From a virus: a stretch of 64,000 nt of DNA. Position 1 is the stretch's first letter; the number at the start of each line of letters is the position of its first letter. Where the stretch lies: IMG/VR virus record IMGVR_UViG_3300028394_000053, positions 31,863 to 95,862 of that record, one strand, 5' to 3'. The translations under genes and the position numbers were made by a program. This document shows positions 8,244 through 28,256 of the stretch, piece by piece. The notes beneath the pieces were generated by a model. The model saw nothing but the letters and a program-made list of their open reading frames with translations, was not told the origin of the DNA and ran no database searches.

Positions 8244-10007
8244 ATGATACAAATAAAAAATCTCACAGTACGAAACTTCATGAGCGTGGGTGCTGCCACA
8301 CAAGGCATTGACTTTGATCGACGCGACTTGACCCTGGTGCTGGGTGAAAACCTAGACCTTGGTGGCGACGGATCTAGAAATGGTACAGGCAAGACCACGA
8401 TCATCAATGCTCTTAGCTACAGCCTATACGGACAAGCACTCAGCAACATAAGAAAAGACAATCTAGTAAACAAGACCAATGGCAAGAACATGCTGGTCAG
8501 TTTGGATTTTGTTGTGGGTTCGCAACAGTACAGGATCGAACGTGGTCGTAAACCCAATGTGTTGCGATTCTTTGTGAACAACCAAGAACAGGCCGCCACA
8601 GACAATGCGCAAGGTGATAGTAGAGAAACACAGGAAGCCATAGAACAGACCTTGGGCCTTAGTCACGACATGTTCAAGCATATCTTGGCATTAAATACCT
8701 ACACTGAACCGTTCTTGAGTTTAAAGGCCAATGATCAAAGAACCATCATCGAACAGCTACTAGGCATCACCATGCTGAGTGAACGTGCGGATAGGATCAA
8801 GGAACTGAACCGACAGACCAAAGACGCAATCACACAAGAAGAATTCCGTATCCGTGCTGTGCAGGATGCCAACGGGCGCATCGAAGAACAGATCACGGCC
8901 TTGAAGCGTAGACAGACCTTATGGACGACCAAACATGCAGAAGATATACAGGAACTTGAGAAGGCCCTTGCGGCGTTACAAGAAATTGACATTGACTCCG
9001 AGATCGCGGCCCACAAGGAACACAAGACGTGGGACCAAAAACGCAAGGACATCAATGAACTGGCTGGCCAGATTAGCCGAACAAAACTTGACATTGGTCG
9101 CGAAGAGAAGTCGATTTCCAAACTATCCAAAGAAATCCAAACGCTTGAAAACCATGAATGTCACACGTGCGGACAGGCCTTCCACGACACTAAGCACCAA
9201 CAAGTTTTGGCGGCAAAGCAGACGGATCTGGATTCAGCAAGAGCGGCGTGCCAAGAATATACACAGCTCTTATCAGAACTTGAGACTGCCCACACCTCCC
9301 TGGGCGTGTTAGGTAAACCACCCCGGATGTTCTACGATCATGAAGAGGATGCTATCAAACATCGTAGCACACTCAGCAATTTGCAACAACAGATAGACAG
9401 CAAGCGAGTTGAAGCTGATCCGTATTCAGAACAGATTGAAGAAATGGCCGCACAGGCCTTACAGACTGTGACCTACGACGCCTTAAATGATCTTACTCGA
9501 CTACAAGAACATCAAGACTTCTTGCTCAAGCTACTGACCAGCAAGGACAGTTTTATCCGTAAGAAGATCATTGAACAGAATCTTGGCTATCTCAATGCCA
9601 GACTCACCTACTACCTGGACCGTATTGGCCTGCCACATACAGTGGTGTTCCAGAATGATCTCACTGTTTCAATCGAAGAGCTGGGTCGTGAGCTGGACTT
9701 TGACAATCTCAGCCGAGGTGAGCGCAACAGATTGATACTCAGCATGAGCTGGGCCTTCCGTGATGTGTTTGAAAGTCTATATCAACCGATCAATGTGTTG
9801 TTCATTGATGAAATGATTGATAGTGGTCTGGATACACAAGGTGTGGAAAGCAGCCTGGCCTTGCTCAAGCAGATGAGTCGCGAGCGCCACAAGAGTATCT
9901 GGCTCGTGAGTCACAGAGATGAGCTGGCTGGACGTGTGGAGAATATCCTGCGTGTGGTAAAAGAAAAAGGCTACACTAGCTACAGCACGGATGTAGATAT
10001 TGCATGA
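8244..10007 (+). CDS. gp46: recombination ATPase subunit (Rad50/SbcC-like)
   Basis: Walker A NGTGKTT, Zn-hook CHTC, signature LSRGE, Walker B LFIDE, SH loop. Confidence 0.93.
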   Translation: MIQIKNLTVRNFMSVGAATQGIDFDRRDLTLVLGENLDLGGDGSRNGTGKTTIINALSYSLYGQALSNIRKDNLVNKTNGKNMLVSLDFVVGSQQYRIERGRKPNVLRFFVNNQEQAATDNAQGDSRETQEAIEQTLGLSHDMFKHILALNTYTEPFLSLKANDQRTIIEQLLGITMLSERADRIKELNRQTKDAITQEEFRIRAVQDANGRIEEQITALKRRQTLWTTKHAEDIQELEKALAALQEIDIDSEIAAHKEHKTWDQKRKDINELAGQISRTKLDIGREEKSISKLSKEIQTLENHECHTCGQAFHDTKHQQVLAAKQTDLDSARAACQEYTQLLSELETAHTSLGVLGKPPRMFYDHEEDAIKHRSTLSNLQQQIDSKRVEADPYSEQIEEMAAQALQTVTYDALNDLTRLQEHQDFLLKLLTSKDSFIRKKIIEQNLGYLNARLTYYLDRIGLPHTVVFQNDLTVSIEELGRELDFDNLSRGERNRLILSMSWAFRDVFESLYQPINVLFIDEMIDSGLDTQGVESSLALLKQMSRERHKSIWLVSHRDELAGRVENILRVVKEKGYTSYSTDVDIA

Positions 10008-10973: not shown

Positions 10974-11829
10974 TCTATATTGTATGTTTTGGATTCCAGG
11001 GAGTTGCGGCGATATTATTCAACAACTACTAGGAAAATCTGGTCAATTTGAAAATCAATACGATGGTGCAATTTTAGATACTGGTCGGGCATTGCAGAGC
11101 GTTGATCCACGATTAAAGAACTTATTTCCAAGCAATATTGTTACGTGGACCCCAAAGAATACTAACAGATGGTATGGCAGAACATGGAACGACTCTGACA
11201 TATTAAAATTAAAAGAGTTAGCAGCAGAAAGTAGTCAATCGTGGATTATCGGTACGCACAGACTTGATCAATTGTTTTTTTTAAAAAAATCCTTAGATAT
11301 AGTGTCTATTGGCATTACATATGATCTAGAATTATACCCAGCTGTGATTAAAAACTGGTGCAGAAAATCAGCTGTTGGATGTACTGTAACTCAGGAAATA
11401 TATAAAAATTCTAAAATAGCACAAAAATTTCAAGAAAAGAACTTGTTTGGAGAATTTATGCTTAAAGAAATTCTCAATCATATTACTGATAGACCAAAAA
11501 AAATTGACAATAATTTTGACATTAATATTTCATTAGGAGATATCTATAATAGAAATTTATCATCTATAGATAGGTGGGTTACAGACGCTGGACTAGATAT
11601 GTTTGACCGATGGTTATTGCTTCAAGATCCGCTGTATAGATTTAAGTATACCAATCATCAATCCTACATAGATATACTTGGCTACAACACACATGCAACA
11701 ACTGTACTAGATGCCCCTATCAAACTGTCGACATTAGACCAAATTTTGATATCTCATTATTGCAAGGATGCCCCGTCTACCATAAACACAAACATAGATT
11801 TTGTAAATTTTTTAAATGGCCAAGGATGA
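10966..11829 (+). CDS. hypothetical protein (AT-rich island)
   Basis: 287-aa ORF coupled to the previous gene; N-terminal FWIPGSCGD could be a P-loop/sulfotransferase-like start (weak). Confidence 0.55.
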   Translation: MSDLYCMFWIPGSCGDIIQQLLGKSGQFENQYDGAILDTGRALQSVDPRLKNLFPSNIVTWTPKNTNRWYGRTWNDSDILKLKELAAESSQSWIIGTHRLDQLFFLKKSLDIVSIGITYDLELYPAVIKNWCRKSAVGCTVTQEIYKNSKIAQKFQEKNLFGEFMLKEILNHITDRPKKIDNNFDINISLGDIYNRNLSSIDRWVTDAGLDMFDRWLLLQDPLYRFKYTNHQSYIDILGYNTHATTVLDAPIKLSTLDQILISHYCKDAPSTINTNIDFVNFLNGQG

Positions 11830-11845
11830 TGATAACTACTAGTCC

Positions 11846-12274
11846 ATGGTATGGCTTTACGAAAACAAAACAATCGAACAACTGCCCGAAGACTGTGTGG
11901 GGTTTGTATACCTGATCACAAACAACACCACCGGTAGGAAGTATATCGGTAAGAAACTAGCAAAATTTAGTAAGACAACGTACAGAGTAGTGAAATTAAA
12001 AAACGGCAACAAAAAACGTAAAAAAATCAGAAGCAAAATAGAATCAGACTGGCAGCTATACTATGGAAGCAACACCGAACTCAACCAAGACATTGAACGC
12101 TTAGGCGCAGACAACTTCACAAGAGAAATATTATTTTATTGCAACTCAAAAGCCGCTTGCAGTTATATCGAAGCTAGGGAACAATTTAATCATAGAGTAC
12201 TAGAGTCAGATGACTACTACAATGGACAGATAGTGTGTCGCATTCACGGTAGTCATATAAAAAACAAAATTTAA
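11846..12274 (+). CDS. GIY-YIG family nuclease (free-standing, single domain)
   Basis: GFVYLITNNTTGRKYIGKK, YYGS, FTREIL, conserved E (YIEAREQ) and YYN; long Lys/Arg-rich insert. Confidence 0.85.
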   Translation: MVWLYENKTIEQLPEDCVGFVYLITNNTTGRKYIGKKLAKFSKTTYRVVKLKNGNKKRKKIRSKIESDWQLYYGSNTELNQDIERLGADNFTREILFYCNSKAACSYIEAREQFNHRVLESDDYYNGQIVCRIHGSHIKNKI

Positions 12275-12293
12275 ACTAGACAGGCAACAAAAC

Positions 12294-12656
12294 TGACTGT
12301 GTTTGATCGAGGTAGCTCGATCCCCGTTGAGGGCTGGTGCAATACCCAGCTCAGATAGAATGGACTCAGGTTCACTCGGGTGTCAAAGGCAAATGCTAAC
12401 TTAAGGCAACAAATGGTTTGGGCTCCGTTGAAAAAGATACGACCCATGCTCGTAGGACTTGGATTTATTCTCGGGTCACTAGGGTTCCGTTGATATGTGA
12501 AGCGTGAGTAGGGGGTACCGGTCAACCGCCTCCGTGTGGAAACACAATCTTGCAAGAATAAATGACAGCTACACTCAGATAATGTACCAGTCATGTTCAC
12601 CGTTCATACGGTGAATTGTGACCGCGTGATCTAGATAATGCACTTAAAAACAGTCA
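12294..12656 (+). ncRNA. candidate large structured ncRNA downstream of the GIY-YIG gene
   Basis: Terminal helix TGACTGT 12294-12300 / ACAGTCA 12650-12656; long-range helix ATTTATTCT 12463-12471 / AGAATAAAT 12555-12563; hairpins 12305-12322, 12333-12350, 12511-12533, 12535-12546 (GAAA loop), 12590-12622; G-U pairs and the GNRA loop favour the + strand. Confidence 0.7.
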
Positions 12657-12666
12657 ATTAAAAAAA

Positions 12667-12709
12667 TGTTTCTGAGCTTTAGCGAAAGAAACAGATCTCT
12701 AAGAGATCT
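12667..12709. terminator. tandem hairpins at a convergent transcription junction
   Basis: TGTTTCT...AGAAACA (12667-12693) followed by AGATCTC-TAA-GAGATCT (12693-12709); an A-run upstream would serve as a U-tract on the - strand. Confidence 0.5.
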
Positions 12710-13044
12710 TACAAGTTGGTATCGGGCCAGTCGCGAAACAAGGCGTGCTGGATGTCTCCAGCAACAAACTGATTGAAGCTTTTGTGCTTGACTTCAAGAT
12801 CGCCTTCCAGTGGAGCCACACGTTTAAACGCACGATCCATTTGACCCATGTCTGTGAACTCCATGATAATCATCCATTCCGGCATATCTGCTATAGACCT
12901 AAACCCCATTTTACATCTAGTGATTCTGTACGTCTCCATCTTGCCTTCGGCAATCAAATGATCAAAGAAACTTTTCATTCCGTTTACCCAGTCTAGATCT
13001 GAAATGTCACCTTCTTTGTTTGCCCAAATTGTATATAAATCCAT
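12709..13044 (-). CDS. DUF6614-like dimeric alpha/beta-barrel protein
   Basis: MDLYTIW...YRITRCKMG...MEFTDMGQMDRAF...HALFRDWPD pattern recalled from DUF6614. Confidence 0.55.
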   Translation of the reverse strand: MDLYTIWANKEGDISDLDWVNGMKSFFDHLIAEGKMETYRITRCKMGFRSIADMPEWMIIMEFTDMGQMDRAFKRVAPLEGDLEVKHKSFNQFVAGDIQHALFRDWPDTNL

Positions 13045-14213: not shown

Positions 14214-15037
14214 AAAAAACTGGACATGTCTAAGGTTATTTGCTGTTCGTATTCGTGGGCACATTCATCACACGCTATATGTAACGGTTTCATTTCAGCT
14301 ATATTTTTTAATTCAATAATGTAGTCTCTTACCTGATTGAACAGGTTACGATCACAGTTGTTCAGCATTTCTTCAATGAATTCTGGCTCACTTACCATGG
14401 CAGTTGGAGTCCGTACCATGGCAACACTTTGGGCCAAGGCTTTTATAGTGATCTCGGTAATTTTTTTCAATGACGCCCCTAGTGCTGACATTTTATCTGC
14501 TTCTACCATTTCGGTATTTGGTAACAGTTGTAAAAGTTTTTGATTTTCGTATTGTAATTGGCTATTATTAGTCAGTTGCTGATAGTTCATTGGACGAAAG
14601 AAAATCTCCATATCTCCAGACTTGATACTTTTTGTATAATCCGGAGCCTTTAATCCATCCATGACTAACCGCAGATCGATTGCACGATCACTTTCGGCTT
14701 GGCATTTTGGACACTGTGTTACAAATTCCATTTCATGTCCGTAGCTGGCAATTCGTATGGCCACCAACACAGTATCCATATCCAGTGCTGGCATTTGCCA
14801 TGCATCTTTGATGTTTGGCACACAGCTTTGTATCACATTTATAGTGGCCTGCCCGTTGAACATGGCATCTGGAGTACGATAGGTAATTTCGTCAATGGCA
14901 GTCATTGGATACACAGGATAATCGCCTGTGGGTGTGGGAATCAGCGCACCAGTGGGATAAAATTGTCCATTGCTGGGCAACTTGATGTAAATTGCTGGCT
15001 GTCTAAAATATTGTCGGAGCGGGTTGTTTGGGTTCAT
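14198..15037 (-). CDS. gp26: baseplate hub assembly chaperone, gp26-like
   Basis: IKLPSNG, PMTAIDEI, DTVLVAIRIASYG, CPKC and CDEC Zn motifs, C-terminal SSFF. Confidence 0.75.
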   Translation of the reverse strand: MNPNNPLRQYFRQPAIYIKLPSNGQFYPTGALIPTPTGDYPVYPMTAIDEITYRTPDAMFNGQATINVIQSCVPNIKDAWQMPALDMDTVLVAIRIASYGHEMEFVTQCPKCQAESDRAIDLRLVMDGLKAPDYTKSIKSGDMEIFFRPMNYQQLTNNSQLQYENQKLLQLLPNTEMVEADKMSALGASLKKITEITIKALAQSVAMVRTPTAMVSEPEFIEEMLNNCDRNLFNQVRDYIIELKNIAEMKPLHIACDECAHEYEQQITLDMSSFFDPAS

Positions 15038-27460: not shown

Positions 27461-27529
27461 GTTCAACGCAATCAGGCGTTTTATGCTGAACGGGCAACCC
27501 AACAGCGTAGCAGAATAGAACCTGCATTG
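27461..27529 (+). ncRNA. candidate structured cis-regulatory 5' leader
   Basis: Three consecutive hairpins (27465-27480, 27482-27509, 27510-27525) between the late promoter CATAAATA (27450-27457) and the SD TAAGGAG. Confidence 0.5.
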
Positions 27530-27551
27530 GACTTCTTTAAGGAGAAAACAA

Positions 27552-28256
27552 ATGGGCCGTCCTTTAAAAATTAAAAAATCAACCACCATAGACATTGGTT
27601 TCAATGACTTTGGTAACCTAGAAGTGCCTGTGATTCCAACTGGCATGACCACTACAGACTTTATTGGTGTAGTCGGTGGTGCCAACGCCGGTATTGCAAC
27701 AGCTGCCTATCCAGTAGTGGCCTGTGATGCCAACATCAACGGCGTAGGCAACACCGCCGCTTATATCATACGTCAAAAAGGTGCAACCAAATACCTGGTT
27801 GGATCTACAGCCGCTACTACTGCTGCAAATATTGTGGCCGGCAGTAGTTATCGTATTGTCAGTGTAGGAACTACAACATTTACCGCAATTGGTGCACCAG
27901 TTACAGCCACAGTGGGCGATATTTTCACAGCCAATCAAGCTGGTACCGGATCTGGTACTGTAAACCTGGTAGGGCAGTGCTTGTTGGCCAATCAGGCCAA
28001 TGCGGCATTACTGACAGCCAACACCATGAGTATTACTTTCAGCTACGATGGCAATCCAGCCAACGTGACACCGGTAGCAAAATTGGAAAACTTGTATGTG
28101 TGGAATTACAACAGCTCGAACACAGCCAACACACAGTTCAGTTCTACATTCTTTGACACCGGTAATACCACGCCCAAGTCCGGAGCCGAAGTTGAAACAT
28201 TCACCAATGCAACTGGCGATATTGTGCTTGGGTTGATCACAAACTACACATCCTAA
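27552..28256 (+). CDS. virion structural protein (possible head decoration protein)
   Basis: MGRPLKIKK start, YIIRQKGATKYLV, beta-rich Thr/Ala/Asn composition; own late promoter, strong SD and downstream hairpin. Confidence 0.55.
   Translation: MGRPLKIKKSTTIDIGFNDFGNLEVPVIPTGMTTTDFIGVVGGANAGIATAAYPVVACDANINGVGNTAAYIIRQKGATKYLVGSTAATTAANIVAGSSYRIVSVGTTTFTAIGAPVTATVGDIFTANQAGTGSGTVNLVGQCLLANQANAALLTANTMSITFSYDGNPANVTPVAKLENLYVWNYNSSNTANTQFSSTFFDTGNTTPKSGAEVETFTNATGDIVLGLITNYTS

What the first reader, a model, noticed from the sequence alone, without database searches (positions are those of the whole stretch)
11831..12709. Free-standing GIY-YIG nuclease followed by a ~360-nt highly structured non-coding element: candidate nuclease-ncRNA system
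Seen: in a tightly packed genome, a 434-nt gap follows the GIY-YIG stop. It can fold into a closed multi-domain structure. A terminal helix (TGACTGT 12294-12300 with ACAGTCA 12650-12656, extendable by TTT/AAA) encloses a perfect 9-bp long-range helix (12463-12471 / 12555-12563) and hairpins GATCGAG-GTAG-CTCGATC, GCTGG...CCAGC, GGGGGT...GCCTCC, TGTG-GAAA-CACA and GTCATG-TTCACCGT-TCAT-ACGGTGAA-TTGTGAC. Further hairpins follow at the convergent junction. The gene is preceded by a late-type promoter GATAACTA (11831-11838) and no terminator separates it from the element. The protein is a bare catalytic domain with an extremely basic insert (KKLAKFSKTTYRVVKLKNGNKKRKKIRSK) and none of the C-terminal DNA-binding modules typical of homing GIY-YIG enzymes such as I-TevI. 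Established: HEARO/OMEGA RNAs are structured RNAs partnered with compact nucleases. Inference: this could be an undescribed GIY-YIG ribonucleoprotein with an RNA scaffold or guide. Alternatives are a stand-alone large phage ncRNA or an R-loop origin element. I did not recognise tmRNA, RNase P or group I/II intron cores.
Basis: partly seen in the sequence, partly recalled or inferred. Interest (0 to 1): 0.9.

Follow-up and report, generated by a model that had tools for sequence, protein, structure and literature searches.

The report
Twin-box phage RNA behind nuclease gene
The 434-base gene-free gap after a small nuclease gene of this uncultured T4-like lake phage encodes a real, pseudoknotted non-coding RNA shared by well over a hundred related phages; it shows one short sequence twice, always changed in step, its job is unknown, and nothing shows that it guides the nuclease.

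Summary
The gap at 12275-12708 holds a genuine structured RNA on the + strand. In 98 distinct copies, 90% of cells in my 109-pair model form pairs, against about 40% when partners are slid. Sixty-nine pairs keep pairing after changes on both sides (0 of 500 shuffles reach this).

The "terminal closing helix" is not conserved: TGAC pairs with GTCA at 12382-12385.

Two hairpin loops carry the same 7-nt word (12577-12583 and 12633-12639). It has 12 variants, and both copies change together. No complementary partner was found.

No Rfam family matches this copy. Sister copies carry Polynucleobacter-1 (RF01718) as their 5' third and share the 3' 230 nt with this RNA.

The RNA always follows a nuclease gene. 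Usually that is the GIY-YIG gene, sometimes with 0.8-2 kb inserted, and in four contigs an unrelated PD-(D/E)XK nuclease. The GIY-YIG family occurs widely without the RNA, so an obligate GIY-YIG ribonucleoprotein is unlikely.

My best guess is weakly held: a late, co-transcribed stable RNA that acts through its twin loops on another nucleic acid.

This scan has found the same family on other genomes before.

The parts
11832..11838 (+). ATAACTA box, a late-promoter-like motif 8 nt before the GIY-YIG start codon
   Evidence: A similar ATAA(C/A)TA box lies 7-14 nt before the start codon in most of the 15 relatives inspected. The related ATAAATA box occurs 14 times in the 96-kb record, 8 of them within 24 nt of an ORF start. 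Promoter function is inferred by analogy with T4-type late promoters and is not shown.
11846..12274 (+). 142-aa GIY-YIG nuclease gene (SegE-type catalytic domain only)
   Evidence: Pfam PF19835 matches at 9.4e-34 across the whole profile. PHROG 447 matches at 2.5e-38. The AlphaFold model has pLDDT 81.6, and its best PDB fold match is the I-TevI catalytic domain 1LN0 (prob 0.95, E 0.3). The residues of the GIY...YIG motifs, an Arg, Glu residues and an Asn are invariant in 24 homologues.
12277..12709 (+). Twin-box structured non-coding RNA (about 430 nt; true ends not mapped)
   Evidence: It is conserved at 75-91% nucleotide identity in more than 120 viral contigs. It is non-coding and + stranded: no 3-periodicity, indels mostly not multiples of three, and 1162 G-U cells against 277 A-C cells. 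Rfam gives no hit even at E<=10.
12294..12385 (+). 5' domain: helix P0 (12294-97/12382-85) encloses hairpin P1 (12305-22), helix P2 (12323-26/12377-80), hairpin P2a (12331-52) and a lineage-specific tetraloop hairpin
   Evidence: All 4 pairs of P0 and all 4 of P2 show changes on both sides. The inserted hairpin carries UUCG or GCAA loops in relatives. This domain is replaced by Polynucleobacter-1 (RF01718) in sister RNAs.
12393..12481 (+). Hairpins P3 (12393-12409), P4 (12415-12450) and P5 (12453-12481)
   Evidence: 94-98% of cells are paired, with compensatory changes in 3, 6 and 6 pairs respectively.
12463..12563 (+). Pseudoknot: the P5 loop 12463-12471 pairs with 12555-12563
   Evidence: Mutual information picked out 12465/12561, 12469/12557 and 12470/12556. 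The two helix segments are 96.8% and 87.6% paired, and 7 of 9 pairs show changes on both sides.
12482..12552 (+). Near-invariant core: P6 (12482-12504) and the three-way junction P7/P7a/P7b (12505-12552), including GGGGGUACCGGUCAACCGCCUCC
   Evidence: Sequence is almost invariant in 98 copies. P7's closing pair switches A-U/U-A (52/43). P7a's closing pair switches G-C/A-U (74/24). This core is shared with sister type B RNAs.
12577..12583 (+). Twin box 1 (AGATAAT), in the 11-nt loop of hairpin P8
   Evidence: It is identical to box 2 in 93 of 94 type-A copies. An exact twin pair occurs in 155 of 180 GIY-linked loci, with 12 haplotypes.
12595..12616 (+). Hairpin P9 between the two boxes
   Evidence: 96% of cells are paired and 4 pairs are compensatory. 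In type B the stem is fully exchanged to UUUGCCC/GGGCAAA.
12633..12639 (+). Twin box 2 (AGATAAT), in the second loop
   Evidence: Mutual information between box columns 12577/12633 and 12581/12637 is 1.04-1.07 bits, with identity rather than complementarity. The 5' flanks stay different: CUC before box 1 and UCU before box 2.
12668..12692 (+). Hairpin P10 with the conserved GAGC...GCGAA internal motif
   Evidence: All 6 outer pairs and both inner pairs show changes on both sides.
12693..12709 (+). Hairpin P11, a terminator-like stem at the convergent junction that abuts the DUF6614 stop codon
   Evidence: 6 of 7 pairs are compensatory. It scores as an intrinsic terminator on the - strand. In many relatives it is followed by a T run on the + strand.

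Best explanation
The gap encodes a stable, intricately folded non-coding RNA of about 430 nt. It belongs to a family I call 'twin-box' RNA, a sister form of the RNAs whose 5' third is catalogued as Polynucleobacter-1.

It is probably transcribed late in infection by read-through from the small nuclease gene upstream, and it ends at the hairpin shared with the convergent gene.

Its folded body includes a pseudoknot and a near-invariant three-way junction. This body holds out two hairpin loops that carry the same 7-nt word.

My best guess at the mechanism is that these two loops act as equivalent single-stranded 'seeds'. Each would base-pair with the same kind of nucleic-acid partner in trans, either phage or host RNA or DNA. 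That would explain why both copies must change together.

What is shown and what is inferred:
- Shown: the RNA, its fold, its strand, its distribution and the concerted twin boxes.
- Inferred: late co-transcription.
- Conjecture: trans pairing.

On this reading the neighbouring nuclease is not a specific protein partner.
For: The RNA is real:
- 98 distinct copies give 90.2% paired cells, against 81.5% when shuffled and 38-44% when slid.
- 69 of 109 pairs have changes on both sides, and the covariation score is 0.258 against 0.111 (0 of 500 shuffles reach it).
- RNAalifold independently found 20 compensatory pairs in 26 sequences.
- G-U cells outnumber A-C cells 1162 to 277, and there is no coding signal.

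Distribution:
- More than 120 viral contigs were found from an RNA-core pattern alone.
- 63 of 74 GIY-YIG loci with enough flank have it.

Twin boxes:
- The two boxes are identical in 93 of 94 type-A copies, and there are 12 haplotypes in 155 loci.
- Their different 5' flanks persist, which argues against simple gene conversion.
- Both sit in 10-11-nt loops closed by short stems.

Co-transcription:
- There is no terminator-like or sigma-70-like site between the gene and the RNA.
- A conserved ATAACTA box lies before the gene.
- Contigs from four metatranscriptome libraries bridge the GIY-YIG stop codon into the RNA.
Against: - No partner complementary to the boxes was found in the RNA, in 5-10 kb of flanks of 94 loci, or in the 96-kb record.
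- Most box changes are A/G transitions. A partner carrying U would tolerate these without any need for concerted change.
- The metatranscriptome contigs are shallow (depth 2-6), and DNA carry-over is not excluded. No RNA ends are known.
- A nuclease gene lies upstream, on the same strand, in all 106 RNA-first loci that could be scored. This could still mean a functional tie to the nuclease.
Confidence: 0.4

Rival explanations
1. Nuclease-RNA system. The RNA would scaffold, guide or inhibit the nuclease encoded upstream (GIY-YIG, or PD-(D/E)XK where that replaces it). The twin boxes would then be a short programmable specificity element, for example for the two strands of an inverted-repeat DNA site.
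For: - All 106 RNA-first loci that could be scored have a nuclease gene upstream on the same strand. When the GIY-YIG gene is missing, another nuclease takes its place.
- Gene and RNA appear to be co-transcribed.
- The GIY-YIG protein has no DNA-binding module, and it has a strongly basic beta-hairpin at residues 40-66.
- The boxes are the one fast-changing, exposed segment.
Against: - Two unrelated nuclease folds precede essentially the same RNA.
- 22 loci have 0.8-2 kb of other genes between gene and RNA.
- The GIY-YIG family is found in about 500 phage records. Five cultured phages have it with no room for the RNA, or with no match to it.
- GIY-YIG proteins that are 97-98.6% identical go with different boxes.
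- 7 nt is very short for a guide, and no target was found.
- All carriers are one syntenic phage lineage, so the linkage may simply be inherited gene order.
Confidence: 0.08
2. Cis-acting 3' end element. The structure would protect the late nuclease transcript from 3' exonucleases. Together with P10 and P11 it would also terminate and insulate the two convergent transcription units.
For: - The RNA sits at the 3' end of a + strand unit, facing a - strand unit. P11 scores as a terminator and abuts the convergent stop codon.
- It travels with whatever gene ends the unit, whether GIY-YIG, PD-(D/E)XK or an inserted gene.
Against: - 430 nt with a pseudoknot, a near-invariant 70-nt core and concerted twin loops is far more than termination or stabilisation needs.
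- Other convergent junctions in T4-like phages manage with a single hairpin; this rests on general knowledge and was not tested here.
Confidence: 0.2
3. Protein sponge or scaffold. The twin boxes would be two binding sites for a dimeric RNA-binding protein of the phage or host, and the RNA would titrate or assemble that protein.
For: - Two equivalent exposed loops sit 56 nt apart on a rigid fold.
- A further short word, AGGCAA, is repeated three times in the 5' half.
Against: - Twelve box haplotypes among close relatives would require the protein's specificity to change as often.
- No candidate protein is linked to the RNA.
Confidence: 0.15
4. Replication primer or R-loop origin RNA, on the logic of ColE1 RNA II.
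For: - It is a structured transcript next to recombination and replication genes; a gp46-like gene lies at 8244-10007.
Against: - Nothing specific supports it. No A+T-rich unwinding element or origin signature was identified.
- The G-U-rich covariation shows selection on RNA folding, not on a DNA hybrid.
Confidence: 0.04

Closest known systems
Polynucleobacter-1 RNA motif (Rfam RF01718; Weinberg et al. 2010, PMC2864571)
   Same: - Sister 'type B/C' RNAs sit at the same position after the same GIY-YIG gene and carry RF01718 as their first 140 nt (13 of 13 loci, 71-119 bits).
- Those RNAs share the 3' 230 nt with this window's RNA: core, twin boxes, P9, P10 and P11 (nhmmer E of 0.0003 to 1e-13).
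- The habitat is the same, fresh water.
   Different: - The window's RNA does not match RF01718 even at E<=10. None of the 5 type-A loci tested does either. Its 5' 200 nt fold differently.
- The catalogued motif covers only about a third of the full RNA and lacks the twin boxes and the pseudoknot described here.
- The paper only lists the motif, as a candidate cis-regulatory RNA of Burkholderiales and fresh water, with no function.
OMEGA / HEARO RNAs with IscB or TnpB nucleases
   Same: A compact nuclease gene lies next to a large structured RNA.
   Different: - There is no Rfam HEARO hit.
- The nuclease is GIY-YIG or PD-(D/E)XK, not RuvC/HNH.
- No terminal guide of 16-20 nt and no transposon ends were found, and two unrelated nucleases precede the same RNA.
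Free-standing GIY-YIG homing endonucleases of T4 (Seg proteins, I-TevI)
   Same: The catalytic domain family is the same (PF19835), and the best fold match is I-TevI 1LN0.
   Different: - There is no C-terminal DNA-binding region. The protein is 142 aa, and the matching PHROG profile is 148 positions long.
- It is conserved at one position in 180 related loci and in about 500 phage records, rather than being sporadic.
- It is replaceable by a nuclease annotated as RusA-like Holliday-junction resolvase. This suggests, by inference only, a housekeeping DNA-structure nuclease.
Large ornate bacterial and phage RNAs (GOLLD, ROOL, OLE)
   Same: It is a large, highly structured, phage-borne RNA of unknown function from lake metagenomes.
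   Different: There is no Rfam match. It is smaller, at about 430 nt. Oligomerisation was not tested.

Membership tests
Polynucleobacter-1 RNA (RF01718) | Covariance-model score at or above the gathering cut-off of 37 bits | tested here: not met
   There is no hit in window 12150-12800 even at E<=10, and none in 5 type-A loci. 13 type-B/C sister loci score 71-119 bits.
Polynucleobacter-1 RNA (RF01718) | Homology to RNAs that contain the motif | tested here: met
   A profile of the window's RNA type matches the 3' half of the RF01718-bearing RNAs at the same distance behind the GIY-YIG gene (E of 0.0003 to 1e-13). The architecture and twin boxes are the same.
Structured non-coding RNA (generic) | Base pairs maintained by compensatory change beyond controls, with no coding signal | tested here: met
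GIY-YIG nuclease superfamily (PF19835 SegE_GIY-YIG) | Profile score above the curated cut-off, and the GIY-YIG fold | tested here: met
   116.7 bits against a cut-off of 25, covering the whole profile. The model's best PDB match is I-TevI 1LN0, with prob 0.95 but a weak E of 0.3.
GIY-YIG nuclease superfamily | Catalytic Tyr, Tyr, Arg, Glu and Asn residues present | tested here: inconclusive
   Y22, Y33-I34-G35, R93, E109, E112 and N126 are invariant in 24 homologues. Their equivalence to I-TevI Y6, Y17, R27, E75 and N90 rests on my reading, not on a structural superposition.
Homing GIY-YIG endonuclease (I-TevI / Seg type) | C-terminal DNA-binding region and sporadic, mobile distribution | tested here: not met
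   The protein is 142 aa with a catalytic domain only, and the PHROG 447 profile is 148 positions long. It sits at a fixed position in 180 loci.
OMEGA / HEARO guide RNA system | Rfam HEARO match, an IscB or TnpB partner, and a guide segment with matching targets | tested here: not met
   There is no Rfam hit. The neighbours are GIY-YIG and DUF6614. No complement to the variable boxes was found.
tmRNA / tRNA-like RNA | ARAGORN or Rfam detection | tested here: not met
Intrinsic terminator (P11) | G+C-containing stem followed by a T run | tested here: met
   It is scored on the - strand at 12709-12693. On the + strand a T run follows in many relatives but not in this window.

The most novel reading that the evidence does not exclude
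The twin-box RNA would be a programmable specificity module for whichever small nuclease is encoded upstream. Its two identical loops would pair with the two strands of an inverted-repeat DNA (or RNA) site, directing or restraining cleavage. That would be an RNA-guided system built on GIY-YIG or PD-(D/E)XK nucleases and unrelated to CRISPR or OMEGA.
Probability: 0.05. Interest if true: 0.9.

Novelty: new variant of a known kind. Interest (0 to 1): 0.6.

Why it matters
Large, conserved, pseudoknotted RNAs of unknown function are rare, and past examples have led to new biochemistry. This one is abundant in freshwater T4-like phages. Only a third of a sister form is catalogued.

It also has a feature I know of in no described RNA class: two loops that carry the same short word and change in step. 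That gives a sharp, testable handle. Finding what reads the word would probably reveal a new phage regulatory or targeting mechanism.

The work also reinterprets the neighbouring 'homing endonuclease' (annotated 'NAD synthetase' in many records). It looks like a conserved, late-expressed housekeeping nuclease that can be swapped for a resolvase-like PD-(D/E)XK enzyme.

Tried and rejected
- **Rfam.** I searched at gathering thresholds on the whole window and at E<=10 on 12150-12800. The only result was a chance mir-2804 row and an unrelated freshwater-2 hit elsewhere.
- **tRNA and tmRNA.** None in the window or in the 96-kb record.
- **Protein-coding reading.** The 109-aa - strand ORF (12271-12600) and the short + strand ORFs are not conserved. 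There is no 3-periodicity, and indels are mostly not multiples of three.
Not conserved.
- **Cis partner for the boxes.** Mutual information against all columns, exact-complement searches in 94 loci, and RNAduplex over the 96-kb record gave nothing above chance. One recurring ATCATCC site in the DUF6614 gene is a conserved codon string that does not covary.
- **blastn against 50,697 cultured phages.** No match for the 11700-12900 region.
- **Genome-contig scan with a 17-nt core pattern.** Almost all hits were chance matches in G+C-rich genomes. One hit, L303, lies inside a transporter gene.
- **Metatranscriptome contigs.** No contig of the four RNA libraries covered 12548-12900. That is no evidence of absence.
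- **PDB sequence search with the GIY-YIG protein.** Only a marginal, uninformative hit.
- **Presence or absence of the alternative nuclease.** The records are fragments, so the negatives say little.
- **T-box and codon-like readings.** A T-box-like resemblance of the GGGGGUACCGG segment, and a codon-like reading of the boxes, were considered. Both were dropped for lack of any test in their favour.

Full report
**What is at the locus**

The window is part of a 95.9-kb uncultured virus record. Its genes are T4-like, for example a gp46-like ORF at 8244-10007. DNA runs that hold the stretch are freshwater and lake metagenomes.

- ORF 11846-12274 (+) encodes a 142-aa protein. It matches Pfam SegE_GIY-YIG over the whole profile (9.4e-34) and PHROG 447.
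- The next gene is DUF6614 at 12709-13044 on the - strand, so it converges on the GIY-YIG gene.
- The 434 nt between them contain no conserved ORF.

**Is the structure real?**

- The single sequence folds only modestly better than shuffles (z = -2.58 on +, -1.54 on -).
- The comparative evidence is decisive. Relatives of the GIY-YIG protein brought in 80 viral contigs. About 30 of them matched the gap at 75-91% nucleotide identity.
- A pattern taken from the invariant RNA core alone then found more than 120 contigs.
- RNAalifold on 26 copies found 20 pairs with compensatory changes.
- I built a model of 16 helices plus a pseudoknot from mutual information and inspection. I counted it on 98 distinct copies:

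| Measure | Observed | Shuffled control | Partners slid |
|---|---|---|---|
| Cells that form pairs | 90.2% | 81.5% | 38-44% |
| Pairs changed on both sides (of 109) | 69 | 47.9 | 19-36 |
| Covariation score | 0.258 | 0.111 | 0.04-0.06 |

  No shuffle out of 500 reached the observed values.
- G-U cells outnumber A-C cells 1162 to 277, which fixes the + strand.
- Variability shows no three-base period, and indels are mostly not multiples of three, so the region is not coding.

**Anatomy (window coordinates)**

- **5' domain.** P0 (12294-97/12382-85) encloses P1, P2 and P2a.
- **Middle.** Hairpins P3, P4 and P5 follow. The P5 loop (12463-71) pairs with 12555-63 to form a pseudoknot.
- **Core.** A near-invariant core runs from P6 through the P7/P7a/P7b junction (12482-12552).
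- **Twin boxes.** Hairpin P8 carries box 1 in its loop (12577-83). P9 follows. A short stem then presents box 2 (12633-39).
- **3' end.** An A-rich linker leads to P10, which has a conserved GAGC...GCGAA motif. P11 (12693-12709) touches the convergent stop codon and scores as a terminator.
- The P8 stem (67% paired) and the R2 stem (45% paired) are the weakest parts of the model. P1 scores low only because its length varies and it aligns badly.

- Supported: the hairpins and the 9-bp long-range helix.
- Not supported: the 'terminal helix' TGACTGT/ACAGTCA. It is absent from relatives, and TGAC pairs with GTCA at 12382-85 instead.
- Plausible: the 'late-type promoter'. ATAACTA at 11832-38 recurs before the gene in relatives. 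The one-base variant ATAAATA lies within 24 nt of an ORF start in 8 of its 14 occurrences in this record.
- Not an insert: the 'basic insert' is part of the family profile and models as a beta-hairpin.

**The twin boxes**

- The 7-nt word in the two loops is identical in 93 of 94 type-A copies.
- It is exactly duplicated in 155 of 180 GIY-linked loci, with 12 different words: AGATAAT, GGATAAT, AGATGAT, AGATGAA, ACATGAA, AGATCAA, AGACGAA, GCATAAT and others.
- The 5' flanks stay different, CUC before box 1 and UCU before box 2. Plain gene conversion is therefore an unlikely cause.
- The relation between the boxes is identity, not complementarity (mutual information about 1 bit).
- I found no complementary partner in the RNA, in the flanks, or in the 96-kb record.
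- This feature remains unexplained. It is the most interesting feature of the RNA.

**Relation to known families**

- No Rfam family matches this copy.
The model hits the first 140 nt of 13 of 13 more distant 'type B/C' RNAs, which sit at the same place behind the same gene. It hits none of 5 type-A loci and not the window.
- Types A and B share the 3' 230 nt, from P6 through the twin boxes to P11.
- The catalogued motif is therefore the front third of a longer RNA. This window carries a sister form with a different front domain.
- The original paper only lists the motif, without a function.

**Link to the nuclease**

Starting from the RNA, 106 loci had at least 700 nt upstream. All 106 have a nuclease gene upstream on the same strand:

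| Upstream nuclease | Loci |
|---|---|
| GIY-YIG, adjacent | 80 |
| GIY-YIG, with 0.8-2 kb of other genes inserted | 22 |
| PD-(D/E)XK, adjacent | 3 |
| PD-(D/E)XK, with an insert | 1 |

- The PD-(D/E)XK nuclease is unrelated to GIY-YIG. It matches PF24608 and PHROG 244, which is annotated as a RusA-like resolvase.
- Starting from the gene, some close relatives and five cultured phages have the GIY-YIG gene without the RNA: Melnitz, C48C1, V45v66, ACP17 and S-SRM01.
- Nearly identical GIY-YIG proteins go with different boxes.
- All carriers are one syntenic lineage, so the linkage may be inherited gene order.
- Together this argues against a dedicated GIY-YIG ribonucleoprotein. It does not exclude a looser nuclease-RNA module.
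- The swap with a resolvase-like enzyme, the fixed position and the late-type box suggest, by inference, that the GIY-YIG protein is a housekeeping DNA-structure nuclease and not a homing enzyme.

**Expression**

- There is no promoter-like or terminator-like site between the gene and the RNA.
- Short contigs from four lake metatranscriptome libraries bridge the stop codon into the RNA. This fits co-transcription.
- Depth is low and DNA carry-over is not excluded. The ends of the RNA are unknown.

**Verdict**

- The object is a real, widespread, only partly catalogued phage RNA with an unexplained concerted duplication.
- I put about 0.9 on 'genuine functional RNA'.
- For mechanism I put:
  - about 0.4 on trans pairing through the twin loops;
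  - about 0.2 on a purely cis 3'-end role;
  - 0.15 on a protein sponge or scaffold;
  - under 0.1 on a nuclease partner;
  - 0.04 on a replication-primer or R-loop origin RNA.
- This scan has reported the same family on other genomes, and my independent tests agree with those reports.

Noticed in passing
L115:5046-5549 (-), L143:2296-2805 (-), L108:9425-9925 (-), L168: In four related contigs the GIY-YIG gene before the RNA is replaced by a PD-(D/E)XK nuclease of about 168 aa (PF24608; PHROG 244 'RusA-like Holliday junction resolvase'). This looks like a non-homologous swap in the same slot.
   Followed up: partly
window 18164, 20013, 36461, 48910, 58232 (+); 4917 (-); further sites upstream of the window: ATAAATA boxes sit within 24 nt of ORF starts in 8 of their 14 occurrences in the 96-kb record. 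These are likely T4-type late promoters with very short leaders. The ATAACTA variant precedes the GIY-YIG gene (11832) and the - strand ORF that starts at 15037.
   Followed up: partly
L019:3429-4415, L009:1512-2501, L045:3428-4252, L028:3431-4261, L015:3401-5221: Two recurrent gene families, about 329 aa and about 275 aa, are inserted between the GIY-YIG gene and the RNA in 22 contigs. Neither has a Pfam match. The junction is a hot spot for gene insertion on both sides of the RNA.
   Followed up: partly
window 27464-27554 (+): Rfam freshwater-2 RNA (RF02980, 63.7 bits) is the only catalogued RNA in the window.
   Followed up: no
window 12668-12692: Hairpin P10 keeps an internal GAGC...GCGAA motif while its stem is fully exchanged among relatives. 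It may be a tandem G-A or kink-like protein- or RNA-docking site.
   Followed up: no
window 12281-12288, 12387-12393, 12404-12410: The word AGGCAA(C) occurs three times in the 5' half of the RNA. The first copy lies just upstream of helix P0 and travels with the RNA even when other genes are inserted before it. It may offer an alternative pairing with UUGC of P3.
   Followed up: no
window 11963-12043 (residues 40-66 of the GIY-YIG protein): The very basic segment models as a long two-stranded beta-hairpin arm. It is conserved in 24 homologues and is a plausible nucleic-acid-binding arm.
   Followed up: partly
L170 and L112 (alignment A3, columns 297-377): Two copies carry an extension of about 50 nt in hairpin P7b. 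The window's lineage has an extra tetraloop hairpin at 12361-12373. These are tolerated expansion points of the fold.
   Followed up: no
L065:1872-2500: One GIY-YIG locus has a small ORF followed by a different non-coding stretch with AGGCAA repeats. It matches neither type A nor RF01718 and may be another variant.
   Followed up: no
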